Below, one piece after another: positions 1-54,475 of a stretch of 64,000 bases of DNA (the stretch's first letter is position 1; every line of letters starts with the position of its first letter). The translations under genes were made by a program, and so were the position numbers. This stretch comes from Raja brachyura (taxonomy: Eukaryota), in the NCBI GenBank assembly GCA_963514005.1, contig OY740797.1:43524001-43588000 (forward strand). Reading direction: 5' to 3'. The notes under the pieces were generated by a model, which saw only the letters and a list, made by a program, of their open reading frames with translations, was not told where the DNA came from and did not search any database.

Positions 1-604
1 ATCTGAGCCACAGCAAGGCTTCTGCGCCATAACGTAAACTTAGTTCCACCCATCACCGTTAGCAATCATTGCAGTGCTGGCACTTTGAGTAATACACTCA
101 ACAATTCATTGCCACTGTCCTGGTAATTAGTTAGGTTTTTTTTTTTTGCCAAAAGGTTCATTTCAGAAGAAACCTGTCTTGCAAATTGCCCATTTATCTC
201 CAGTTCTATCAGTCAAGCTCCTGTTTGTTTGCTGTTTGTTTTAAACTTTAACCAAGGCAAAGTTAAAATGTGTCCTTGGTTGATGTCTGTGGTGTTAATG
301 GTGTATTGAAGAGAGAAGCAAAAATAAAAGCTGCTGTGTACCGCAGGAGATCAGTGCAATTTAGGATCGATTTTTTGGGAAGTTTCAAGGGGGGGGGGAG
401 GGCAGAAGTTTGCCAGAAAGTCGTGTTTTAAATGAAAACAAACATAAATACATTGGAAAAATAATACGATCCAAAACACTATTTAAAGCATAGCCCCACC
501 CTCACTACACCATTTGACTCTCTTCCCTGGCTACTTCCTTTCATTCCACACCAAGAATTATGACTTTTTCCATTATTTTTCTTTCTGATACTGGCAACAT
601 TTCA

Positions 605-637
605 CCCCCCCCCCCCCCCCACACACACACACACACA
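605..637 (+). repeat. (C)n(CA)n simple repeat
   Basis: Direct read. Confidence 0.9.
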
Positions 638-2102
638 ACTCCCTGCTTGCATCTGTAGCTCCGTAGGGGGAGAATGAGTCGTAGTCCTGTGTTATTAACA
701 TGTTCTTACAAGAATATTGGACTTGGAAAGCTGCCAGAGCACATTATAATACATTAAATGTAATCTCCTGTAGAGTGATTAAAAAAGATCAGAGTGCCCA
801 AGCATATTTTAACGCATGGCACTGAATCTCATGACATCTGCCATTGAGCTCATGTGGTAGTATCTGCATCCTTGTTATATTTCCAGCCGCATTGTTAGAA
901 AGAACCTCTTGGTAATATGACCTTCTTGAGAGTAGGACCAGTGTTGCTTGGTGGGGTTTCCTTGGTCCCCTGTGGTAATGATGGCAGAGTTCCAAAATCG
1001 AGGACGAAGTAAAGCGAAAAGAGGTTGCAGAATTGGGCTCAGATGCTCCCTGGTTTTATTAGGCATAATGTTAAAAAAATATACGGTAATATAGATGGCC
1101 ACAAGATAAGAAATAATCCAAATTACAATACAGATTAAACATTTCTGACTTTAGAATAACTTTATTCATAGTGCTTTTGTCCAATTTTTCAAAAACTAAT
1201 CAATGCATGTGTGGTTTTCTAAATCTGTATACTATGATTTATTATCCATAGGCGTTTTGTTAAAATGATAATTAAAATTGTTGAGTGGTTTAACAATGGT
1301 TTTTAGAATTGCCACAATAAACGTTGTTTGTGGGCTACTATACAAAGGGTTAATCGTATCATGATGCAGATGCCGGCAGTGGTTGAATTGATTAGTGCCA
1401 ATGTGTTATTGCACAGGCTTGTTTGACCCCACGTTTCTTCGCAATAATTAAAAATTGATTGTTGTAACTAATTTTTACCATCTGTTTAATTCTCACGTGA
1501 ATTAGAATGCTTGCATTTGGAGATGTATAATACCAATAGCCCATTTTAATGCCATTCTCAGTTCCTTGGTACTTAGTCTAAAGTTTAAGCTACAGTTGTC
1601 AAACGTTAAGAAACTCTACTGTCAGCTCTGGCACTTCTGTGTTCAGCCTTTAAATTTGAGGCAGATTTGGATTTATTTCTCTATTCGAATCCCCGATTAG
1701 CTGGGTCATTGAGGGTTAAACCATGTCCATGGTAACCTGAATGTTATAAGATGGTCCCCCCTATTTCCAACCTCTCATATCTTAGGACCTCCAACTCAAG
1801 GTCTTACTTAAGATAGACATAAAAAGCTGGAATAACTCAGGGGGTCAGACAACACCCCTGGAGAAAAGGAATAGGTGACGTTTCAGGTCGAGACCCTTCT
1901 TCAGTAAAACCCTTTTACTTCCTTTGTTTATATTTGTGAATACAGTCGTTAACAATGTGAGCAAGGTTCGCACTAAAGAATTAAGAAACATGTTTGATGA
2001 TGTTCAATTAAAAAAATAAGCTTTACCCTAGCAATGTGCTTGATCCCAGTCTTGGTGCCCTTAGTGCCCTTACTCTATCTCACACAGCAGTTATCCTGGT
2101 GT

Positions 2103-2260
2103 GTAAGAAGGAACTGCAGATGCTGGTTTAAACCGAAGATAGACACAAAAAGCTGGAGTAACTCAGCGGGCCAGGCAGCATCTCTGGAGAGAAGCATCTC
2201 TCGACCCAAAACGTCACCCATTCCTTCTCTCCAGAGATGCTGCCTGTCCCGCTGAATTAA
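2103..2260. mobile_element. Palindromic Penelope-end insertion
   Basis: Inverted arms; flanked by direct repeat CCTGGTGT (2095-2102, 2261-2268). Confidence 0.75.
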
Positions 2261-3294
2261 CCTGGTGTCTTGTCTGAAAGAAATAAACAATTGTTTGTAG
2301 GTCAACTCAATAAGAACAGAATTGACAAATGCCCCAGTTCATTTCAAGTGTATTCATCTTGCACTCGAAGGACCCCTCGTGGCAATGGAGTGGGGACTTC
2401 AAGGTAGTCTCAGCTAAATTTGAATCCAGCTACTAAATCTGAAATGTTAAAAATCTGACTATCTCAGTCCTCAGTGTTCATTGATTCAGTCTTCAAAGCT
2501 CTCTGGAATGGAGAATCTATTTTGTCAAGCTCCCTCAGAATCTTTTATCAATAAGACCTCTTCTAAACTCCAATGAACATAAACCCACTCTGCTCAACGT
2601 TTCCTCATATGTCAATCGTTTTATTCCTGTACAATTGCAGTAAGATTTATACTCGATCCCCTTTGCAATAATGACCAACTCTCGATTTGCCTTCATACCT
2701 TCCTGTCTTTCTGTGTCTCACCTTTGAGAAAGCCTACATCTCTAGGAGAATTGGCGATGTGGTGCATATTTCTAAAGCTGTGTGTAATTCTCACAGTAAA
2801 ATCCATCGAAGCTTTGTTAAACTTTGTTAAATGCTGTCTGATTTAGCAACATGATAAGTCATAATTACTCACCGACAAGATATTTTTGTCTATATGTGAC
2901 GCATCTAATTGTTACAAAATATTATTTCAAAATTCCCCTGATTTAAGATAACAGGTTTAAAGGGCCATAGAATCGTAGAGTTTATGACCCTATAATAAGC
3001 TTGATTGTTTTAGTGTTTCTTGTTTCAGCCTCTTCTCAGTCTGAGTGAATGTGCCCATCTTTATTTTGACTTTTGTTAAATAGGGACAAAATGGGATCAA
3101 AACGAGACCCTTTTTTTGCTGTTAAACAGGTTCTTGTAATTCAATTGACCACACAGCCAGTTTGACGATTCCACCATAGCTGGATTCCAGTTGGTTTTGT
3201 GGAAATGGGAAATCCATAGCGTAAATTCCTCTGAAGTTTCGGGGACTGATTTCCTCGAGGTCAATAGCAAGTAGCCGATTTTTGTCAATACAGC

Positions 3295-3365
3295 AAAATC
3301 CGGGCCATTTGAGTAATCCGAGCCAATTACTTGAGTAATCCGGGCCAATTGAGCAATCTGCCATT
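3295..3365 (+). repeat. Short imperfect tandem repeat GAGTAATCCGGGCCAATT, about 4 units
   Basis: aaaatccgggccattt / gagtaatccgagccaattactt / gagtaatccgggccaatt / gagcaatctgccatt. Confidence 0.75.
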
Positions 3366-3954
3366 AATATGAGTAAGAAGGAGGTAGGTAGTGAGGGGAA
3401 AGTGTTAGTGAAGGATTTCAACACCATGAATGGCTAGATGGAACGGCACATTGGAAGTGTTTTTAAGGTTGTCCTCATTTGAACCCATCCATCTTGGTCA
3501 AATCCTCTGACGCAGGAGGTTATAATGGAATAGAACATAGATAAGCGTTCAAGTCACAGACTCAATACAACTAAAATAATTAGGCTTCATTGTAGCTCAT
3601 TTTAATCAGTTAGAAAATAAGAATATAAGTGTGATGTGCTCGTGAGTCAAACATGGCTCATAATTATTTTGTCAGTTCTTTGACTGCAGGGTTAATGCGG
3701 TTGGTAACCAGTTAGTTGATAAGGAAAGGTTTTGCAACTGTTTCTAACGAGTGGGTGAAAGCAAAATGACTATTGAGATTTTAAATATCCAAATATGGGA
3801 ATGAAAATAGTGGTTCTAAAACTAAATACATTTTCCATGGATTAAAAATAGTGCTCTAGACAACATTTGCTGTAAAGAGAAAATGGAGCTAATGCTCTTG
3901 ACCAAAGAGATGCCTTGTGACAAATCCATTCAATATTCAACAATATATCATTAG

Positions 3955-10900: not shown

Positions 10901-11590
10901 TTTAATTTTATTTTTGTCCTGCAATAATGATTCATTACCTTGTGACACCAAAATGGTCATCGTAAACCAACATTCTTGGATGCTGATTGTAGGTAAACTA
11001 AATAATACATATTTATTTGAAGATGCATTCTGAGATAACACAACACTTAAAATTGCCTTTTTAAATGATATAATTTTGAGCTACGTTTGGTCACGTTTTA
11101 TGCTTTTCTTTCTATTGCTACATGTATCCTGCATGTTTACCTTTGAAACCTGTACAGGCTAAAGTTTAAATCTAATCTGGCATTAGCTGATAGGAATCAC
11201 TGTCCCTGAAGGCTAATAACTGATCACAAGTAAAATGAGTTTTGACCATCTCAGTCTTGTATTGAGAGACAAGAGCATAAAGCAAACTCTTAAGCACGGT
11301 TTACCATCAACAAATCAAGTAAATAGGCCTCATGCACTCTCATCTCTACCTATTGAACATTGCAGCAGATTGGCCATTTAATTTGTATAAAGAGTTGCCA
11401 TGCTGCAGATTTTATCCCCAGACAATGATGGGAAATTGGACTTTATTGTTAGTACTGGCTTTAGAAGAAGTGTGAAGACTGGTCATTCACCGATGACTAG
11501 AGGGGTTCTTCTCGGGGTTTGAATGTCGCTTTCTGGCACCTGTTCCCAAGTATTTCATCCTTGCTCTTTATTCTCTGGTTTGTCATGCAG

Positions 11591-12087
11591 TTGGCGGTGA
11601 GATTCCTATTGACATGCGACTGGGAGGTGGGCAGCTGGTGTCAGAAGAACTCATGAACCTCGGCGAAACGTTCACGACCACGAACGACCCTTCCTTGAAG
11701 CTTTTCCAGTGTGCTGTCTGCAACCGATTCACCACGGACAACCTGGAGACACTCAGTCTGCACATGAACATTGAGCGACACCTTCCCGAGGAGGAGTGGA
11801 AAGCATTCATTGGCGATTCCTACCAGTGTAAGCTCTGCCGTTACAACACCCAGCTCAAGGCCAACTTCCAGTTGCACTGTAAGACAGATAAGCACGTGCA
11901 GAAATATCAGCTTGTGGCACACATCAAAGAAGGAGGCAAGGCCAACGAGTGGCGACTCAAATGTGTGGCCATTGGGAACCCAGTGCACTTGAAATGCAAC
12001 GCATGCGATTACTACACCAATAGTATTGAGAAGTTGCGACTGCACACTGTCAACTCAAGGCACGAAGCCAGCTTGAAACTCTACAAG
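11591..12087 (+). CDS. ZFHX3: Internal coding exon of zinc finger homeobox protein 3 (ATBF1), three C2H2-type fingers
   Basis: Pyrimidine tract and acceptor ...tgtcatgcAG (11589-11590); donor AAG|GTAAGA at 12088. Translation [25 protein letters not shown]...[14 protein letters not shown]...[89 protein letters not shown] matches ZFHX3 as I recall it (ZFHX4 differs, e.g. CNYNTQ, KSNEW, HTTNHRHEAA). Exon starts in phase 1 and ends in phase 0. Neighbouring exons not seen. Confidence 0.93.
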
Positions 12088-13471
12088 GTAAGAAAAGCAA
12101 CATCTCCCAATGCAGTCCTTCCTTGAATTACAGTGAACAGCAGTCATTAAGTTCTCCATAAATGGAATTTGCAAAGCAAATATTTGTTAATGAAGGATTG
12201 TCCTTTGGAGGATTTTTTTTAGACATTTCAAGTTTGGAAAAAAATGCCCTGTAGAAACTTTATACATTGTTTAATTTACTCAAGAATGTAACAGCTTTGT
12301 ACGAACGTTTAAGGTAAAATTGGTGAAGCCAACAGACCTAGAAGAGGTGTCCTCAGATTAGAAAAAAATATTGTTGAAGTTAAAAATACTTTGACACATC
12401 GAGCAGAAAATAAATGTATCTTTCGGCTGTCAGTTCAAATGATCCAATAAGGTTGGGTGGCTTGAGAATTCCACATTTAATGTAAGCGTAAGGGAGTGAC
12501 ACCAGAGAGCAAATTATTTTGTTTTATTTAAAGAAAAACCTTCCTATTTAATCAGGGCTCAACATCAAGCTTTCTGAAGACTGGCCCCTCAGGCTGTTGT
12601 TCAACAGGCTTCACATGACTGATTGCCTGACTCATTAATCAATACTCTGATCCATTTTAGTCAATTAAGTAAATCTGGAATACAAATGTTGACTCCCATT
12701 GCAGCACCTCCTTGGGTCTATGGAAAACTATCCATAAAGTCAGAATGAAGTTGAGTTAGATAATTAATTTATAGTTATGCCAACTCGTCACTTTATTCCC
12801 ATTCACGACTCCGTGGTTCTGAAACTCTCACTCATGCCTTTCCCTTCCCCTACTAATTACACAATATCAATCCTGCACATGCGCTTCATGTGTTTCTCAA
12901 TGCAAAGTTCAAACTAGATAAGTCAAGGCCATTTGGCCCACATAGCCCGTTAATACAATGAAGCTGCAATCTGCTTCCACATGTCCATTATTCTTGCTTT
13001 CACTTATTTGTATTAAGAAGCAATGCTTTCTTGCATTGTCTATGAAGTTCTTAATTTTCTGTGCTTACTTGTCAAGCAGTTGCAATTTAGCATGATTTAG
13101 TATTCAGGATTTGCCTTTTTGTATTCCACTGGGTGACATATATTTCCCTCTTATCCTAACTGTCTGCTTTCTATGCTGAAAGATTCTTAGGTTTTAGCTT
13201 TTCCCTCATTACTCAGTCCTCTAGGATCATAGATCTGCTTTTTGACCCTCCTCTGCAGCATTTCCGGGGGCTGAAATATTCTCCCGATCACCAGGAATGC
13301 AACTTGGACAGCAAGGTTGTCCAACCGGTTGTCTATTCATTTGACGATGTAGCTCAAACATCAACTGGTTTGTTGATTGCAACACTGTGGTATGCACAGG
13401 TGCTGATTGTTGCATCTTATATTCACTCTCTTTTCATGCTAATCAAGTAATTAACATATTACTACTACCGT

Positions 13472-13988: not shown

Positions 13989-16968
13989 ATCACCACCAAT
14001 TCTCCCATTTCTAGTTGATGATCATCAATAAAACTGAACTAATTGTGTTATGTTGCTGCATTCTTCCCCCTAGGACAGATACCTGTCATTTATACCTTGA
14101 TTGCAATAGACTCTGTATTGGCCCATCTCCCTTCTTCTCCAGCATTGCCCTCTCTTCACAATATCTCGGTGTGTCCTTCCATCTCATTCTCCTGCCACCC
14201 TCTTCCCTTCCTACCTCACTGGTCTTTACTGTCTTTTCTTCACTTGCTCTCTCACTTGGTCTACGTGTCTTTCTCATTGTGGGGGGATAAAGAATTGGAG
14301 AACAAAACAACACGACTTAACAGAGTCAAGGAAATGTGCGTGATATGGGGCCCATCTGTCGGGAAGAATAGGAATGGTCATTATCATCATATTCATGTTG
14401 ACTTGTTTTTTCTTCATTGAAATTGCAAAAATCCTCATTGCTGCAATCCTCCAACCATAGGGGTGTCTGTGAATTTTGGTGATATGCTGTTATATTAAAA
14501 AATCAGCGCACTGTTGATCTCAGCTCTAAACTAAACGTAGGTCCATGGACATGTCCTGTAGACAGATTTAAGGTTGATGTGATATTATTCGTCAACATTT
14601 AATTATCTTCCAGAGACAGAAATAACTAATTCTTCTGATACGTTGTGCCTTGTATGATCTGTTGTCCTTTTCCATAGATTTGTGTTTGATGTAGCTCTTG
14701 CTGATAAGTACATTGTGGTGGGGGGGGTGAAATTTGTGCTGGGGAATTGGTAGCCCAGTCGATTCTATTTTTGATTGTCTAGATTTAACAGTTACAGGCT
14801 TACAGCTTTTGGAACCTGAGATATGACAATTTTAATTGTTAGGGCTTTCAGCTAAGATAACCTATGTTCAATTTATTTTTGTTGCTGGCTACATAAATAT
14901 GCAGCACTGTACTCGGAGACTGTACTCCTGGCAAATGTAAGGTCAAACATCTCTGAAATACCTACGCATTTAAGGTCTGGGACAGCATTTTGACCGAATG
15001 GAGCAGAGTCCTACTTGAAATCCCAGAGGTTCAAACTGTTTGTTTTAAGCTTCTTTCAAGGTCACACATGGTATCAATCAAGAAATGTTTTCCACTCAGC
15101 TTCAGAATTAGTCGTTCTATCCATGCTCCACCAAATGACTGACGAGAAATGGACCAGCAAATCCCCTTGACCGTGCTTGGTGCAAGGCTCTGATTTGTTA
15201 CCAAACTTTAAAGGGTTAACCAGCGTGAATGTTAATATTAGCATGTTTGGTGTTTAATTGTTGTGCCAGTCTTGATCTGTACTGTTGTTCAGCTTGTTGA
15301 TTATTTGTTCTGAAAGTAAAAAAGGATAGGAAATGTGAGAAAGGATGTAAAAGGCTTCAGTGGAACTGGTTTGGAGAACATATTTGTTCCATCTTCCTAG
15401 CTTCCTTTCCCTTGTGAACATACTTTACAAAGTGAGAATCGCCCACATGCACAAATTAAACAAAATGGTGCTGTGAAACCTTAATCTACAAATTACCAAA
15501 ACTGTGATGGTACTGAAATAAATTGCCTGATATTTATGTGTAAAAAGTGTAATGTACAGACATTCTTCAATGATACTTTTGTGCGCTTTCCAGTTTGTTT
15601 TGGTGTCGGATAGAGAATATCAATATTATGATGGCGTGGTAAAGATTCTGCTGCAGACAAAGATGATATATTGAGGAGAGGACAGATCAGTATGAATTGG
15701 TGGCAAATGTTAAGAAGCTGTTTCCGTACAGCCTTCGAGCCATTTTAATGATATTGGGTACATTCGAATCTGCAGCAATTTTTAAAAAGCAAAATATTAT
15801 GGTTTATGAAAGGGGTGAAAAAGTCTTAACAATCTGACTTAAGAACACGGTTCAGGTGGGCATGCAACGAGCTTGCACCCAGCTCCCTGAAACCTAAGAC
15901 GGGATAAAGATCCAGTTAATGGTACTCGACTCAGGCAGCTGAATTGCTGTAGACAGTTGTATTGATTTTCACTGGACTTAAAGCTTCACCTTTTTCTCTA
16001 ATCATTCCATAATGGCTTTAGTATGAACAATCAGGTACAAATGGCCATAAATCTACCAGCCTTATTCCACTTACCTTCCACTCAATGTCAGGCACAGGCT
16101 TGTAGTTAACCCAACTTGGCAGTAGCTTTGGGACATTTTTTTTTAGTGCCTCGTTCTTGCCAGTAAAGCTGTTTCATTTAAAAAAAAGCAGAGATAGGAT
16201 CGTAGAGCAGCCTATGTTTTTTGGGAGTAGATTCTGTTTGTAATCTGAATGCATAGTTTATCGAAGAACGATTCTGCAAAGCAGCTCTTTCGTACAATGC
16301 TTTTGAAATATGATTTCACAGGCTTGCCTATGAGAATATGGGCACCAAGTGTTGGCTTCAAGCAGTCCCTTTTTATGTAATTATGTAAACTAATAATTTA
16401 CAAGGAAATTGATTGGACAGGAAAAATTGCTGCTGTACAGTACATTTTTCATTTCATCATGAAAGCATTAAATATGTTCTTATTTCAGGCACCTCCTGAG
16501 CAAATTTCTATTTAGTTATCACTCTCCTTGCCCCTGTAGATTTAGTTAGAAGCCAAAGGGACACCTGGACCAAGAAACACAAATGAAAGTCTATTCCAAT
16601 TTTAAAATCAAGCATTCTGCCGCAGTTTTCATTTTAACGTAATAAATGTCTTTGCCAAGAAATTCCGTGGTGGACAGCCGGGTAATATATGCTCTATTGC
16701 AGCAATAGCATATTACACGTAACATCTGAAATTAGAGTCCACTAAAGGAAATGGAATGAATATTGGAGGCAGATTTCAACAAATGGCTCAGTGTTATTGG
16801 CGCTACTGACCAGGGATGACTTTCTCGGCAACAATGCTGGAGAGGACTTGTCCACATCATCTTGTGCTGTAATGAAGCTATCACACTGGTGGTGGTGCTA
16901 TACCAGACACTGGCAACATTTGCAAAAACTGCATAACATTGTTTTCAACGTAACATTGAGAATTTGAT

Positions 16969-17104
16969 CTTCTTCTTTCGTGTGGCGTGCACAGCCTAAA
17001 GTTGTAGGACAACTTGTTCTATTTGATCTTCTCATTGTGCACGTCGAGTTGATTGCATTAGTCGAAACAGGGCGGACCACGTGAAGGTTGCAATCTTCCA
17101 CCCC
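16969..17104 (-). mobile_element. Short non-autonomous retroelement headed by an HDV-like ribozyme, copy 1
   Basis: Perfect 11-bp TSD GAGAATTTGAT (16958-16968 and 17105-17115); minus-strand 3' tail ...GAAAGAAGAAG; closely similar second copy at 44198-44336; no tRNA A/B box head. Confidence 0.85.
17051..17104 (-). ncRNA. HDV-like (CPEB3-type) self-cleaving ribozyme, minimal P4
   Basis: Minus strand: GGGGUGG(P1) AA GAUUGCA(P2) ACC(P3) UUCACGU(L3) GGU(P3) CCGCCCU(P1, G1-U wobble) G UUUCGA(mini P4) CUAA(J4/2, catalytic C) UGCAAUC(P2). All nested double-pseudoknot pairings can be drawn. Confidence 0.8.
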
Positions 17105-17919
17105 GAGAATTTGATGAAGATTCAGATCTTATCAGTGACGACCATTTACTAGAAATAAGGTGATTTTCAAACCATTGGGACGAAGTAGAACAAATGGGTC
17201 ACCTGTACAATAAATGGTGGCTGTGTATGAAGGCATTTCTGAATTCTGTCAAATAGAAGGAATTTAGTTGACAAAATGTGAATTATTTATTCATATGCTG
17301 TTTCACATTCGTAGTATAGTGCCAATTTTGGTTGCACATAAGCCAGCAGCTAACGTTGGAATACCATCCCATTTCCCAATCCATGAGTCTCACCGAACAT
17401 AGAAACTCAGTGCAGGAGTAGGTCATTCAGCCCTTTGAGCCAGCACTGCCATTCAATATGGTCATGGCTGATCATCCAAAATCAGTACCCCGTTCCTGCC
17501 TTTTCCCCACATCCCTTGATTCCGTTAGCCCTAAGAGCGATATCTAACTCCATCTTGAATATATCCCCCTCCTCACTCAGTGCAACCTCCTCCACAAATC
17601 TGCATTTCTCACGCACTTTGTGTGGATGTTAACCTTTAGAAGGCCAAAGTAAGCACTCAAAATGTGACCATTGAATTGGAATGAAATTCAAGAAATGTCC
17701 TTGAGAGATCATTAAATCGTGTTTTTTTTTGCTCATGGACAATAACTGGACAGAAACAGCCTTAGTCCTCCATCGCGTAGGGTTTGCTCAGGATCAGGTC
17801 ACTGGTAACCTATTATTGACATTAGAAAATAACATATAGATATCGGTTCTATATCACACAATTTATGTGTTTTATGTTAGTATGGGCAAAATAATTCAAG
17901 AGGAGCAAACACTAATCAT

Positions 17920-44197: not shown

Positions 44198-44336
44198 CTT
44201 CTCCTTCTTGCATATGGCGTGCAGAGCCTAAAGTTGTAGGACAACTTGTTCTATTTGATCTTTTGTTTGTGCACGTCGGGTTGATTGCATTAGTCGAAAC
44301 AGGGTGGACCACGTGAAGTTTGCAATCTCCCACCCC
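44198..44336 (-). mobile_element. Short non-autonomous retroelement headed by an HDV-like ribozyme, copy 2
   Basis: Same family as 16969-17104; degenerate 12-bp TSD ATCCTAGGTCAT (44186-44197) / ATCGTTGGTCAT (44337-44348); minus-strand tail ...CAAGAAGGAGAAG. Confidence 0.82.
44283..44336 (-). ncRNA. HDV-like ribozyme, copy 2 (one P3 mismatch)
   Basis: GGGGUGG GA GAUUGCA AAC UUCACGU GGU CCACCCU G UUUCGA CUAA UGCAAUC; P1 pair 5 is U-A (U-G in copy 1); the middle P3 pair is broken (AAC/GGU). Confidence 0.7.
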
Positions 44337-49394: not shown

Positions 49395-52300
49395 AACATC
49401 GAAACATAGAAAATACGTGCAGGAGTAGGCCATTCGGCCCTTCGACCATTCAATATGATCATGGCTGATCATCCAAAATCAGTAGCCCGTTCTGGCTTTT
49501 TCCCCATATCCCGTGATTCCTTTAGACCTAAGAGCTAAATCTGACTCTCTCTTGATAACATTCTGCTAGCCCTAAGAGCTCCATCTAACTATCTTTTGAA
49601 TACATCCAGTGAATCGTCCTCCACTGCCTTCTGAGACAGAGAATTACACAAATTCACAACTCTCTGGGTGAAAAGGTTTTTCCTCAACTTAATTCAAAAT
49701 GGCCTACCCCTTATTGTTAAACTGTGGCCCCTGGTTCTGGACTCCCTCAACATCGGGAACATGTTTTCTGCATCTAGTGTGTCCAATCCCTTAATTAGAT
49801 TAGATAATTCTATATATGATTATGTAATTCTATAATTCTATAAGATATCCTCTCATCCTTCTAAATTCCAGTGAATAAAAGTCCAGTCGCTCCATTCTTT
49901 CATCATATATCAGTCCCACCATCCCGGGAATTAACCTCATGGACCTCCGCTGCACTCCCTCAATAGCAAGAATGTGCGTCCTTAAATTTGGAAAACAAAA
50001 CTACACACAATACTCCAGGTGTGGTCTCTCCAGGGCCCTGTACAACTGCAGAAGGACTTATTTGCTCCTATACTCAACTCCTCTTGTTATGAAGGCTAAC
50101 ATGCCATTAGCTTTCTTCACTGCCTGTTGTACCTATATGCTTACTTTCAGTGACTGATGTACTTGGACACCCAGGTCTTGTTGTACTTCCCCTTTTCCTA
50201 ACCTGACACCATTCAGATAATAATATGCCTTCCCATTCTTGCCTCCAAAGTGGATAACCTCACATTTATCCACATTATACTGCATCTGCCCACTCACCCA
50301 ACTTGTCCAAGTCACTCTGCATCCTCATAGTACCCTCTTTACAGTTCACACTGCCACCCAGATTTGTGTTATCTGCAAATTTGCAAATATTACTTTTAAT
50401 TCCTTCATCTAAATCATGAATATATTTTGTAAATAGCTGCGGTCCCAGCAACAAGTCTTGCGACACCCCACTAGTCACTGCCTGCCATTCTGGAAGGGAC
50501 CCGTTAATTCCTACTCTTTGTTTCCTGTCTGCCAACCAATTTTCTATCCATGTTAATACCCTATCCCCAATACCATGTGCTCTAATTTTGCCCACTAATC
50601 TCCTGTGTGGGACCTTGTCAAAGGCTTTCTGAAAGTCTAGGTACACTACATCCACTGGCCCCTTGTCCATTTTACTTGTTACATCCTCAAAAAATTCCAG
50701 AAGATTTTTCAAGCATGATTTCCCCCTTTGTAAATCCATGCTGACTTGGACCGATCCTGTTACTGCTATCCAAATGTGCCGCTATTACATCTTTGATAAT
50801 CGACTCCAGCATCTTCTCCACCACTGATGTCAGGCTAACTGGTCTATAATTCCCCGCTATCCCTCTCCCTCGTTTCTTGGAAAGTGGGTTAACATTAGCT
50901 ACCGTCCAATCCACAGGAACTGATCCAGAATCTATAGAACATTGGGCAATGATCACCAATGCATCAACGATTTCTAGAGCCACCTCCTTGAGTGCCCTGA
51001 GATGCAGATCATCAGACCCTGGGGATTTATCAGCCTTCAGTCCCATCAGTCTACCCAACACCATTTCCTGACTAATGTGAGTTTCCTTCAGTTCCTCCAT
51101 CACACTAGGTCCTCTGTCCCCTAGTACATATGGGAGATTGTTTTGTGTCTTCCTTATTGGAGAGAACTAAAGTACCTGTTCAACTCGTCTGCCATTTCCT
51201 TGTTACCCATAATATATTCATCTGTTTCTGTCTTCAAGGGACCCACGTTTGTCTAAACAATTTTTTTTCCTCTTCACATACCTAAAGAAGCTTTTACTAT
51301 CCTTTATATTCTTGGGTAGCTTACCTTAATACTTCATCTTTTCTCCCCATATTGACTTCTTAGTTACCTACTGTTTATCTTTAAACGTTTCCCAATCCTT
51401 TGACTTCCCGCTCATCTTTGCTATGTTGTACATCTTCTCTTTTATTTTTATGCTGTCCTTGACTTCCCTTGTCAGCCACGGTCGCCCCTTACTCACCTTT
51501 GAATCTTTATTTATTTTTGGAATGAACTGATCCTGCACCTTCTGTATTATTCCTGGAAATACCTACCATTGCTGTCCCACCATCATTCCTACTAGGATCC
51601 TTTTCCAGTCAACTTTGGCTAGCTCCTCCCTCATGCCTCCATAGTCCCCTTTGTTCAACTGCATTACTGCCACTTCTGATTTTACCTTCTCCCTCTCAAA
51701 TTGCAGATTGCAACTTATCATATTATGGTCACTACCTCCTAATGGCTCCTTTACGTTGAGTTCCTTTATCAAATCAAGTTCATTGCACAATACTAAATCC
51801 AGAATTGCCTTCTCCCTGGTAGGCTCCAGTACCATCTGCTCTCCGAATCCTTCTCAGCGGCACTCGACAGAACTCCCTTTCTTGGGGGTCCAGTACCAAC
51901 TTGATGTTTCCAGCCTACCTGCATGTTCAAATCTCCCATAACCACCGTAGCATTACCTTTACACCATGCTAATTTTAACTCCTAATTCAACTTACACCCA
52001 AGATCCAGGCTAATGTTTGGGGGTCTGTAGATAAGTCCCATTAGGGTCTTTTTACCCTTACAAATTCTCAGTTCTATCCACAATGACTCCACATCTACTG
52101 TTTCAATGTCACCCCTTGCAAGGGACTGAATTTCATTCCTTACCATCAGAGCCACCCCACCCTCCCTGCCCACCTGTCTGTCTTTTTGATAGGACGTATA
52201 CCCCTGAATATTCAGTTCCCAGCTCCGATCCTCTTGCAGCCATGTCTCTGTAATTCCCACAACATCACACTTGCCAATTTCTAACTGAGCCTCCAGTTCA

Positions 52301-53750
52301 CCCACTTTATTTCTTATACTTTGCGCGTTCATATATAACACTTTTTATTTGGTATTCACCTCCACTCTCACACCGGTTCTTATTTCACCTGACCTTACTC
52401 TTTTATCCCATCTTGAACTTTCCGTCCCATTAATTCGGGTGTCTTTCGTAACTTTTCCTGTACTCTCTTCCCCTTTAACTCCATCCTTGCACTCCCAATT
52501 TGTCAACCCCTCCCCTCCGCTATTTAGTTTAAACCCACACCTGTAGCCCTAGCAAACCTGCCTGCCAAAATGTCGGGCCCCCTCCAGTTAAGGTGTAACC
52601 CGTCCCTTTTGTACAGGTCACCCCTACCTCAGAAGAGATCCCAGTGGTCTATAAATCTAAATCCTTGCTCTCTGCTCCAGCCCCTCAGCCACACATTCAG
52701 ATCCCCTATCTCTTTGTTCCTGCCCTCACTAGCACTAGGTACTGGAAGCAATCCAGAGATAACCACCTAGAAGTCCGGCATTTCAGTCTTCATCCTAACT
52801 CTCTAAACTCACGTTGCAGAACCTCCTTCCTCTTCTTCTCGACGCCGTTTGTGCCCACATGCGCAACCACTTCCGCCTGCTCACCTTCCCTCTCGAGGAT
52901 GTTCTAAAGTCGGTCCAAGACATCCTGAACCCTGGCACCAGGGAGGCAACAGACCATCCTCGAATCTCGCCTGCCGCCACAGAATTTCCTGTCCGCACCT
53001 CAGACAATGGAGTCACCCACCATTATGGCTCTGCCCAATGTCGGTCTCGCCGGTCGAGTCTCATCGTTAGGATTGGAGCCACCGACCTCTCTGGCGTTCG
53101 TACTTGAAATGCCGCCTGTCCCGACAGCTCCCAAGAGGGTGTACCTGTTTTCATTGGGTACAGCCACCAGGGTCTCCTGCACTCCACGTTTGCTCCTCTT
53201 TCTTATAGACAACCACCTTCGCTCTTCCGGCATCCTAGGTGTGACAACCTCACTGTAGGTCCTGTCCAGGAAACTCTCGTTTTCCCGGATGGCCCTGAGG
53301 TCATCCAGCTGCGGCTCCAGTTCCCCGACGCGTTCATTCAGGAGCTGCACCTGGACGCAATTTCTGCAGGTGCAGTTGTTAGAAGCACCAGCGCAGTCCT
53401 TGACTTCCCACATCCTGCAGGAAACGCACTGTACCAACGTGCCTGCCATTTCTTCAGTGGACAAAAAAATCACAAATTTTGAATCAAGTGTAGCCTCCTT
53501 GCTCAACCTCCTCGCTGAAGACTCTTGAGCCAAAGACTCGCACTTTACTCACCAAGGCCACCTCAACCAGCCACCCCCACCTCTAGAGCAAGCCTTACTT
53601 TTATTTGCTGTTCAATTAGCTAATGAGCTAATTTACAAATTTAGTTCTCGGTTTTTAAATGGCCCGCTCTTGAAATCTCACCAAGGCTTTAACCTGCAGC
53701 CAATCCCCACACTCGCTCCTTCACCTGCCGCTCCTCTGCCGACCTTGAAG
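49395..53750 (-). mobile_element. Near full-length degenerate CR1-clade LINE (5' UTR, ORF1, ORF2, 3' tail)
   Basis: ORF1 with CxxC...CxCxxC, coiled coil and SGNH/GDSL esterase motif (RAIMVGDSIV) at about 53533-52525; ORF2 APE endonuclease (YMNAQSIRNK, VVGITETWL) from about 52341; RT motifs NYRPVSLTSVV, VYLDFQKAFDKVPH, KFADNTNLGG, YNVDKCEVIHFG; (TTCTATGT)-type tail near 49400; many stops and frameshifts. Confidence 0.93.
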
Positions 53751-54475
53751 GTGGGTAACCTCACATTTATCCACATTATACTGCGTCTGCATCTGCCATG
53801 CTTTTGCCCACTCACCCAACCTATTCAAGTCACGCTGCAGCCGCATAGCATCCTCCTCGCATCTCACACTGCCACCCAACTTTATGTCATCCGCAAACTT
53901 GGAGATGTTACGTTTAATTTCCTCGTCTAAATCATTAATGTATATTGTAAACAACTAGGGTCCCAGCACCGAGCCTTGTGGCACCCAATTAGTCACTGCC
54001 TGCCATTGTGAAAAAGACCCGTTAATTCCAACTCTTTGCTTCCTGCCTGCCAACCAGTTCTCTATCCATGTCAATACCCTCTCCCCAATACCATGTGCTC
54101 TAATCTTGCACACTAATTTCTTGTATGGGACCTTGTCAAAGGCTTTTTGAAAGTCCACATACACCACATCCACTGGCTCTCCCTTATCCATTCTACTGGT
54201 TACATCCTCAAAAAATTCCAAAAGATTAGTCAAGCATGATTTCCCCTTCATAAATCCATGCTGACTTTGACCGATCCTGTCACTGCTTTACAAATGCGCT
54301 GTTGAAACATCTTTAAAAATTGACTCCAGCATCTTCCCCACTTCCGATGTAAGGCTAACTGGTCTATAATTCCCGGTTTTCTCTCTCCCTCCTTTCTTAA
54401 AAAGTGGAGTTACTGTATATTGGCTACCTTACGGCTAATGGCTATTGGCACAGGAACTGATCCAGAGTCGCAAGA
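53750..54475 (-). mobile_element. Second CR1 LINE fragment (RT domain), same orientation, abutting the 5' end of the long copy
   Basis: ORF pieces KGKSCLTNLLEFFEDVT...VDFQKAFDKVP...VPQGSVLGP and FTIYINDLDE...KFADDIKLGG. Confidence 0.92.

What the first reader, a model, noticed from the sequence alone, without database searches (positions are those of the whole stretch)
16969..17104. A 136-nt SINE-like retroelement whose head is an HDV/CPEB3-type self-cleaving ribozyme
Seen: on the - strand the element starts GGGGUGG-AA-GAUUGCA-ACC-UUCACGU-GGU-CCGCCCU-G-UUUCGA-CUAA-UGCAAUC. This gives P1 (7 bp, G1-U wobble), P2 (7 bp), P3 (3 bp), L3, a vestigial P4 and a C-N-A-A J4/2. A perfect 11-bp TSD abuts G1, so the element 5' end is the predicted cleavage site to the nucleotide. 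It ends in a (GAA)n tail and has no tRNA/5S/7SL head. Established: HDV-like ribozymes define the 5' ends of R2, RTE and L1Tc retrotransposons and of R2-derived SIDEs. Inference: a promoterless element that is cut out of read-through transcripts by its own ribozyme and mobilised in trans by a LINE. I do not know of such a family described in cartilaginous fish, but I cannot search.
Basis: partly seen in the sequence, partly recalled or inferred. Interest (0 to 1): 0.92.

Follow-up and report, generated by a model that had tools for sequence, protein, structure and literature searches.

The report
Tiny ribozyme-headed jumping element in fish
A 136-base jumping element, present in thousands of copies in this vertebrate genome, begins with what looks like a very small self-cutting RNA and probably borrows its copying enzyme from Vingi retrotransposons; such parasites are known in flies and trypanosomes, but this one is unusually small and abundant.

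Summary
Window 16969-17104 (-) is one copy of a dispersed retroelement: 7,761 exact matches to an internal 26-mer, roughly 20,000-30,000 copies by two rough scalings. 84 of 108 copies have a target-site duplication (median 11 bp), nearly all ending at G1. A contig from a public run shows the empty site. The first 54 nt fit an HDV-like double pseudoknot with P4 cut to 5 nt. Three Vingi-like LINE families and one RTE family in this genome begin with the same fold. Across them P1, P2 and the P1.1 pair change on both sides, which is the best evidence that the fold is real. The element shares head layout and the last ~16 nt with the Vingi families, so it is most likely a short non-autonomous Vingi derivative (a SIDE), not a tRNA SINE. 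Not shown: cleavage, transcription, absence of a promoter, and the direct parent LINE. Ribozyme-headed non-autonomous elements are known (R2 SIDEs, NARTc). New in my searches: a P4-less ribozyme in a vertebrate, at this copy number, and HDV-like heads on Vingi. Repbase and Dfam could not be checked.

The parts
16969..17104 (-). Whole 136-nt non-autonomous retroelement, youngest subfamily (S3)
   Evidence: empty site in run X15 skips 147 = 136 + 11 bases
17051..17104 (-). Predicted minimal HDV-like ribozyme, element positions 1-54; predicted cleavage between 17105 and 17104
17098..17104 (-). P1 5' strand (1-7), pairs with 17069-17075
17089..17095 (-). P2 5' strand (10-16), pairs with 17051-17057
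17076..17088 (-). P3 (3 bp) and L3 (7 nt; U20, C22, G25)
17069..17075 (-). P1 3' strand (30-36)
17062..17068 (-). G37 (P1.1 partner of C22), U38, and 5-nt P4 remnant
17058..17061 (-). J4/2; C44 at 17061 is the predicted catalytic cytosine
   Evidence: C in 103 of 108 copies
17051..17057 (-). P2 3' strand (48-54)
16985..17050 (-). 3' body; can fold as a hairpin; holds a stop codon at 16996-16998 and may be a decayed end of a Vingi ORF (weak)
16969..16984 (-). Terminal motif and (GAA)n tail, 15 of 16 identical to the 3' end of Vingi-like family B
17105..17115 (-). Target-site duplication, 5' copy, abutting G1
16958..16968 (-). Target-site duplication, 3' copy
44201..44336 (-). Second copy, older subfamily (S1), 91% identical; a C18 change breaks a P3 pair, so probably inactive

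Best explanation
The element is a short non-autonomous retrotransposon of the Vingi clade: a SIDE-type element made of a LINE 5' ribozyme and a LINE 3' end. Step 1 (inferred): a copy is transcribed, from an upstream host promoter or from a weak promoter of its own. Step 2 (inferred from structure): the first 54 nt fold into a P4-less HDV-like ribozyme that cuts just 5' of G1, giving unit-length RNA with a fixed 5' end. Step 3 (inferred from shared ends): a Vingi endonuclease/reverse transcriptase recognises the terminal motif and (GAA)n tail in trans. Step 4 (shown by its footprints): target-primed reverse transcription inserts the copy at dispersed sites with a duplication of about 11 bp. Because the cut is at +1, each new copy carries the whole ribozyme. 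My odds per step: retroelement 0.99, HDV-like fold inherited from a LINE 0.95, catalytically active in source copies 0.75-0.8, Vingi as mobiliser 0.8, no internal promoter 0.5.
For: Dispersed, high copy: 7,761 exact 26-mer matches, control 0. Duplication in 84 of 108 copies against 1.8% in mismatched pairs; 78 of 84 end within -2..+1 of G1. Loose contig ends pile at 17104 in 4 of 4 runs laid (296, 95, 58, 27) and run X15 holds the empty site. Vingi-like families A, B, C and an RTE family start with the same fold at their own 5' ends. On 9 heads aligned without gaps, 94.9% of cells pair, 9 of 11 pairs change on both sides, 0 of 500 shuffles reach the covariation score, slid controls pair 49-56%. 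The P1.1 pair is C-G, U-A or G-C in different families. P2 is 7 bp with different sequence in the element and in A, B, C. Against Vingi-A the head is 27 of 38 identical and six P1/P2 pairs change on both sides (counted by hand). Last 16 nt match Vingi B, C ends and A ends, not the RTE end. The three lineage-level changes in the head (positions 8, 32, 45) all keep the fold; 47 of 162 single changes would. P4-less HDV-like ribozymes cleave in vitro (PMC10879173, passages).
Against: No cleavage or expression data: all 20 holders found are contigs, none raw reads. Rfam score far below cut-off; folding z 0.01 and the minimum-energy fold competes with P1. The covariation lies between families, so it shows that the LINE heads are ribozymes; within the element there is no two-sided change. 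The direct parent was not found: none of four Vingi-like families shares more than ~16 nt of the 3' part, and a pattern aimed at the parent's ORF end gave 41 matches, of which the 30 read were all copies or 5'-cut pieces of the element. The RTE family also ends in (GAA)n and has a similar core. Precise 5' ends would also follow from an internal promoter. Only 35 of 108 copies keep the full fold, and 3 of 31 among copies not picked on the head.
Confidence: 0.65

Rival explanations
1. Same origin from a Vingi-like LINE, but the 5' end is set by an internal promoter that starts at G1. The collapsed ribozyme is inactive or serves only as a protective fold or protein-binding site.
For: Pr77 of L1Tc/NARTc is an internal promoter as well as a ribozyme (PMC3383444, abstract and passages). 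P4 is 5 nt against 18-40 nt in Vingi heads. Some well-folded trypanosome SIDER ribozymes were inactive (PMC4035085, passages). A dispersed element cannot count on a host promoter.
Against: The short P4 leaves G37-U38, C44-N-A-A and a perfect P2 intact, and lineage-level changes avoid the core. Minimal ribozymes without P4 are active. Promoter and ribozyme need not exclude each other.
Confidence: 0.18
2. The element is mobilised by, or derived from, the RTE family or is a hybrid (RTE-type head, foreign tail), like the R2/R1 hybrid SIDEs.
For: The RTE family ends in (GAA)n, has an HDV-like head sharing a 19-nt core at 89%, and is of similar age to subfamilies S1 and S2 (4.3% against 4.5-5%). Hybrid SIDEs exist (PMC3414825, passages).
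Against: No match between the element's 3' part and 20 RTE 3' loci. RTE starts with C1-G, has the P1.1 pair flipped and a P4 of about 90 nt. The terminal motif matches Vingi ends.
Confidence: 0.09
3. A Pol III SINE: the sequence around the P4 remnant acts as a degenerate B box and transcription starts at G1.
For: The remnant holds TTCGA, the core of a B box, and the element has no run of four T.
Against: No A box and no B box at consensus, no tRNA, no 5S, 7SL or tRNA family in Rfam. The head is explained position by position by LINE ribozymes.
Confidence: 0.05
4. The fold is a chance reading of an ordinary repeat.
For: Rfam E 1.8; folding z 0.01; my descriptor was written knowing the element.
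Against: 0 hits in 7.68 Mb of shuffles; the fold starts exactly at the element boundary; same register with two-sided changes in four LINE families.
Confidence: 0.02

Closest known systems
R2 SIDEs and R2/R1 hybrid SIDEs of Drosophila (PMC3414825)
   Same: Non-autonomous, HDV-like ribozyme at the 5' end, LINE 3' end, mobilised in trans, precise 5' junctions.
   Different: Those insert only in 28S rDNA, are few, and are longer (529 bp for R2Dwi_SIDE); their ribozymes were shown to cleave. This one is 136-138 nt, dispersed, in thousands of copies, untested.
NARTc / RIME / SIDER of trypanosomatids, L1Tc-ingi clade (PMC3383444, PMC4035085)
   Same: Short, dispersed derivative of an Ingi-related LINE; ribozyme predicted to cut at +1; only the 5' head and a short 3' end are shared with the LINE.
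   Different: Their head is 77 nt with a P4 helix, is also a Pol II promoter, and the tail is poly(A). Here 54 nt, no P4 helix, (GAA)n tail, vertebrate host.
Non-autonomous Vingi derivatives such as those of Vingi-1_EE, and bipartite non-autonomous LINEs in general (PMC5786205)
   Same: 5' and 3' parts of a Vingi or RTE LINE without an ORF.
   Different: [quoted passage not shown] Known derivatives match their parent LINE; no parent was found here.
Minimal HDV-like and theta ribozymes (PMC10879173)
   Same: Nested double pseudoknot without P4, catalytic C first in J4/2, cut at G1.
   Different: Nearly 99% were in tailed phages, often beside tRNAs; the eukaryote genomes searched there were human, mouse and protists. 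This one heads a vertebrate retroelement.
CPEB3 ribozyme (PMC4836649)
   Same: U20, U21, C22, A23, G25, U26, G28, G37, U38 fall at the same numbers; P1.1 is one G-C plus U-U; J4/2 is 4 nt.
   Different: CPEB3 has a full P4 helix and G at 17 and 19, and is a single conserved locus. The Rfam search did not list the CPEB3 model.

Membership tests
HDV-like ribozyme | Nested double pseudoknot: P1 7 bp, P2, P3 3 bp with 7-nt L3, P1.1 | tested here: met
HDV-like ribozyme | Catalytic C first in J4/2, U20 and G25 in L3, paired G1 | tested here: met
   C44 103, U20 104, G25 99, G1 101 of 108 copies; numbering matches CPEB3 passages
HDV-like ribozyme | Score at an Rfam gathering threshold | tested here: not met
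   16 bits against 44, E 1.8; the model carries a P4 and omits P2
HDV-like ribozyme | Mg2+-dependent self-cleavage abolished by C-to-U | not testable with these tools
   needs an experiment
Non-LTR retroelement insertion | Variable-length target-site duplication, simple-repeat tail, dispersed copies, empty orthologous site | tested here: met
Canonical SINE (SINE1/2/3/U) | Head from tRNA, 5S, 7SL or snRNA with Pol III boxes | tested here: not met
SIDE / bipartite non-autonomous LINE | No ORF; begins with a LINE-type 5' end | tested here: met
   same register as Vingi and RTE heads, 27 of 38 identical to Vingi-A
SIDE / bipartite non-autonomous LINE | Clear sequence identity to both ends of one autonomous parent | tested here: inconclusive
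   only the last ~16 nt match any of four Vingi-like families; genome searches were capped and scored only top candidates
Vingi clade (partner LINEs) | Compact single ORF with APE endonuclease and RT, no RNase H | tested here: met
   family A is ~3.15 kb; intact relatives at 79-81% have Exo_endo_phos and RVT_1 only; definition from PMC13708176 passage
Vingi clade (partner LINEs) | Placement with named Vingi sequences in an RT tree | not testable with these tools
   no named Vingi or Ingi sequence was available; the name rests on architecture and on recalled motifs
RTE-derived non-autonomous element | 3' part shared with an RTE 3' UTR | tested here: not met
   (one RTE family, 20 loci)
Promoterless element | No internal promoter; RNA released only from read-through transcripts | not testable with these tools
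   no raw RNA reads

The most novel reading that the evidence does not exclude
An active 54-nt, P4-less HDV-like ribozyme heads a 136-nt element that needs only that head and a ~16-nt tail motif to be copied by any of several resident Vingi LINEs. Any intact copy lying in sense within a transcript can cut itself free and become a new source. The family has retuned its tail from the older Vingi-A/C-like end to the younger Vingi-B-like end as partners changed. A few thousand intact copies would make this a very large natural set of self-cleaving sites in a vertebrate genome, able to cut host pre-mRNAs.
Probability: 0.3. Interest if true: 0.78.

Novelty: new variant of a known kind. Interest (0 to 1): 0.55.

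Why it matters
It would carry the SIDE strategy, known from fly rDNA and trypanosomes, to a dispersed and abundant vertebrate family. It would place a minimal HDV-like ribozyme, so far reported almost only from gut phages, in a vertebrate genome. The fold at the 5' ends of three Vingi-like families adds Vingi to the LINE clades with ribozyme heads, which I did not find in print. Vingi-1 is used for RNA-based gene insertion with its native UTRs (PMC13708176), so a natural 136-nt passenger points to the smallest cis signals such a protein may need. Thousands of naturally mutated copies, in sense and antisense to genes, allow a test of whether self-cleaving inserts are purged from transcripts.

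Tried and rejected
3' 62 nt as a DNA query in the own genome: no candidates, words too common. RTE family as parent: shares the tail only. Nimb-like family from the endonuclease search: no match to the element in 30 loci. Core pattern with a longer gap: 100 matches, by their listed sequence 99 are element copies with small insertions and one looks like chance, so no long-P4 sister with this core. Codon-style pattern for the parent's ORF end: 41 matches, 30 read, all element copies or 5'-cut pieces. 19 windows guessed for Vingi B and C 5' ends: only 2 reached a head. Descriptor on 11 LINE 5' loci: proper hit in 4, a wrong-P2 hit in 1, none in 6. 3' body as a Vingi ORF end: 122 of 20,000 shuffles score as high, but the test was chosen after seeing the match, the score is -2.2 against a median of 17.6 for true ends, and the conserved Trp is missing; a further protein search gave 7 relatives and no closer ending. 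Selection on inserted copies: head 5.5% against body 7-8% divergence in 25 copies, no clear signal. Runs X19 and X20 held under 5 words and X21-X23 none; not used. Earlier scan findings: none in three look-ups. Two key papers, Ruminski 2011 and Kojima 2011, are not held.

Full report
Observation. On the minus strand G1 is at 17104. Positions 1-54 give P1 (7 bp, G1-U36 and U5-G32 wobbles), a 2-nt J1/2, P2 (7 bp), P3 (3 bp), a 7-nt L3, G37-U38, a 5-nt remnant in place of P4, and C44-U-A-A. An 11-bp duplication flanks the element exactly. Rfam gives nothing at gathering score in the window and only a weak HDV-F-prausnitzii match over 17051-17104 (16 bits, cut-off 44, E 1.8). Folding without pseudoknots is no better than shuffles (z 0.01). 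A descriptor for the fold, written with this element in view, hits this copy alone in the window and 0 times in 7.68 Mb of shuffled window.

It is a high-copy retroelement. An internal 26-mer has 7,761 exact matches in the 2.7-Gb genome, control 0. That is a floor. The 26-mer is exact in 11 of 33 copies not picked on it, which scales to about 23,000. Seven copies turned up in 622 kb fetched for other reasons, which scales to about 30,000 with wide error. I collected 108 near-full copies from several searches, so the set is not a random sample. 84 of 108 have a duplication, median 11 bp, against 1.8% for mismatched flanks; 78 of the 84 end within -2..+1 of G1. In 30 loci picked only on positions 12-37, 16 match positions 1-7 exactly and 23 have at most two differences; upstream identity is 0.26. 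In 4 of 4 public runs laid, loose contig ends pile at 17104 (296, 95, 58, 27). One contig of run X15 joins 16957 to 17105, skipping 147 bases with 11 fitting either side, and differs from the flanks by 25 of 289 and 14 of 300 letters: the empty site in a related genome. Holders carry six organism labels and all are contigs, so nothing is shown about transcription. There are three subfamilies: S1 and S2 at 4.5% and 5.0% non-CpG divergence, S3 (the window copy) at 2.6%, leaving out top BLAST hits.

No small-RNA head. No tRNA, no A or B box at consensus, no 5S or 7SL family. It is not a canonical SINE.

Partner search. An RTE-like family found through PF20049 ends in (GAA)n but shares nothing else with the element's 3' part in 20 loci. 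A Nimb-like family is unrelated. A motif screen of fetched DNA found a 3.15-kb single-ORF LINE. Its intact database relatives at 79-81% have endonuclease and RT domains and no RNase H, which fits the description of Vingi in PMC13708176 (passages). The clade names RTE, Nimb and Vingi rest on architecture and on my recall of motifs; no named reference was aligned. Protein searches show four Vingi-like families, A to D. All end in a short UTR, a CG-containing motif and (GAA)n. The element's last 16 nt match family B at 15 and family C at 14 positions. S1 and S2 mostly end CATACGCAAGAAG, one letter from family A's CATTCGCAAGAAG; S3 mostly ends CACACGAAAGAAG, one letter from family B's CACACGACAGAAG. 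Family B's 3' ends are 2.7% diverged, like S3; family A's are 3.5%. These ages come from best-scoring copies and small samples (8 and 23), so the apparent partner switch is a lead only. No family shares more of the 3' part, so the direct parent is unfound.

The LINE heads test the fold. Family A (15 copies whose match starts within 6 nt of G1), family B (4 copies), family C (2 copies) and the RTE family (24 of 30 loci start at the same CCT) all begin with the same layout. Nine heads align over 38 columns without a gap. 94.9% of cells pair; all 7 P1 pairs, one P3 pair and the P1.1 pair change on both sides; 0 of 500 shuffles reach the covariation score; slid controls pair 49-56%. The rows are related and I chose them, so these are not probabilities. 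The 22-37 pair is C-G in the element and in A and C, U-A in B, G-C in RTE. P2 is 7 bp with different sequence in the element, A and B, and 6 of 7 in the one C copy; P4 is 40, 36 and 18 nt in A, B, C and 5 nt in the element. This shows that the LINE heads are HDV-like folds and that the element keeps the same register. It does not show that the shortened form cuts. Two things favour that it does. The three lineage-level changes in the head (positions 8, 32, 45) all keep the fold, where 47 of 162 single changes would (about 0.02 for three; weak, since position 32 is a CpG-type change). And P4-less ribozymes cleave in vitro (PMC10879173, passages). Most inserted copies have decayed: 35 of 108 keep every pair and core base, 3 of 31 among those not picked on the head.

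Mechanism. Most likely (0.65): transcript, self-cleavage at -1/G1, recognition of the tail by a Vingi protein in trans, target-primed insertion. Insertion is shown by its footprints. The fold is shown by comparison. Cleavage, the source of transcription and the partner are inferred. The main rival (0.18) is an internal promoter with an idle ribozyme; Pr77 of L1Tc/NARTc is both (PMC3383444, abstract and passages), and some well-folded SIDER ribozymes are inactive (PMC4035085, passages). RTE as partner (0.09), Pol III (0.05) and chance (0.02) follow.

What is known. R2 SIDEs are a ribozyme plus a LINE 3' end and were shown to cleave (PMC3414825, passages). [quoted passage not shown] CPEB3 numbering is from PMC4836649 passages. 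PMC5753468 and PMC3747384 (passages) list no such family. Eight searches (listings only, apart from the papers named) showed no description of this family or of a Vingi ribozyme. Ruminski 2011 and Kojima 2011 were not held; they and their supplements may bear on novelty. Repbase, Dfam and patents were not searchable, so the family may already have a name. The window holds an exon with a ZFHX3-type zinc finger.

Verdict. Real, well bounded, and a new variant of a known kind: a very small, very abundant SIDE-type element with a predicted minimal HDV-like ribozyme and a probable Vingi partner. It works like NARTc and the R2 SIDEs. Membership as a Vingi derivative is likely but lacks the parent; membership as a ribozyme lacks the assay. 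Interest 0.55.

Noticed in passing
L271:2858-2946 (+), L414:80-164 (-), L417:137-203 (-): Three Vingi-like LINE families each start with a complete HDV-like fold with different P1, P2 and P1.1 sequences; I found no paper that gives Vingi a ribozyme.
   Followed up: yes
L297:1761-1904 (-); loci L285-L314: The RTE-like family starts with an HDV-like fold of about 144 nt: C1-G pair, P1.1 flipped to G22-C37, P3 of two pairs plus an A-A mismatch, long P4.
   Followed up: partly
L420:~400-3447 read on the minus strand: A fourth, distant Vingi-like element (41% RT identity to family A) with a long nearly open frame; its 5' end was not seen.
   Followed up: partly
L013, L071 (same sequence as L073), L072: Copies of the element sit in antisense inside another copy at the same 10-bp site of the 3' body. 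Three apparently separate cases; may be self-targeting or duplication of one event.
   Followed up: no
loci L111-L140 and the 100 matches: Many copies carry short tandem duplications inside the ribozyme, often at the P3/P1 junction, or a repeated 5' end, as if reverse transcriptase slips on the folded RNA.
   Followed up: no
window 11497-12126 (+): Exon with a ZFHX3-type zinc finger ending in a splice donor; both element copies lie downstream and antisense to it, probably in an intron.
   Followed up: partly
L067, L069, L374: The same short inverted-repeat element is inserted at the same site in two copies of the element's 3' body, and also in a Vingi-A head.
   Followed up: no
91 copies starting GGG: The base just before G1 is T in 45 and G in 23; positions -8 to -2 show no such bias. 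Could be nicking preference or 5' junction formation.
   Followed up: no
window 50275-54416 (-): Broken CR1-like LINE pieces (endonuclease and RT fragments).
   Followed up: no
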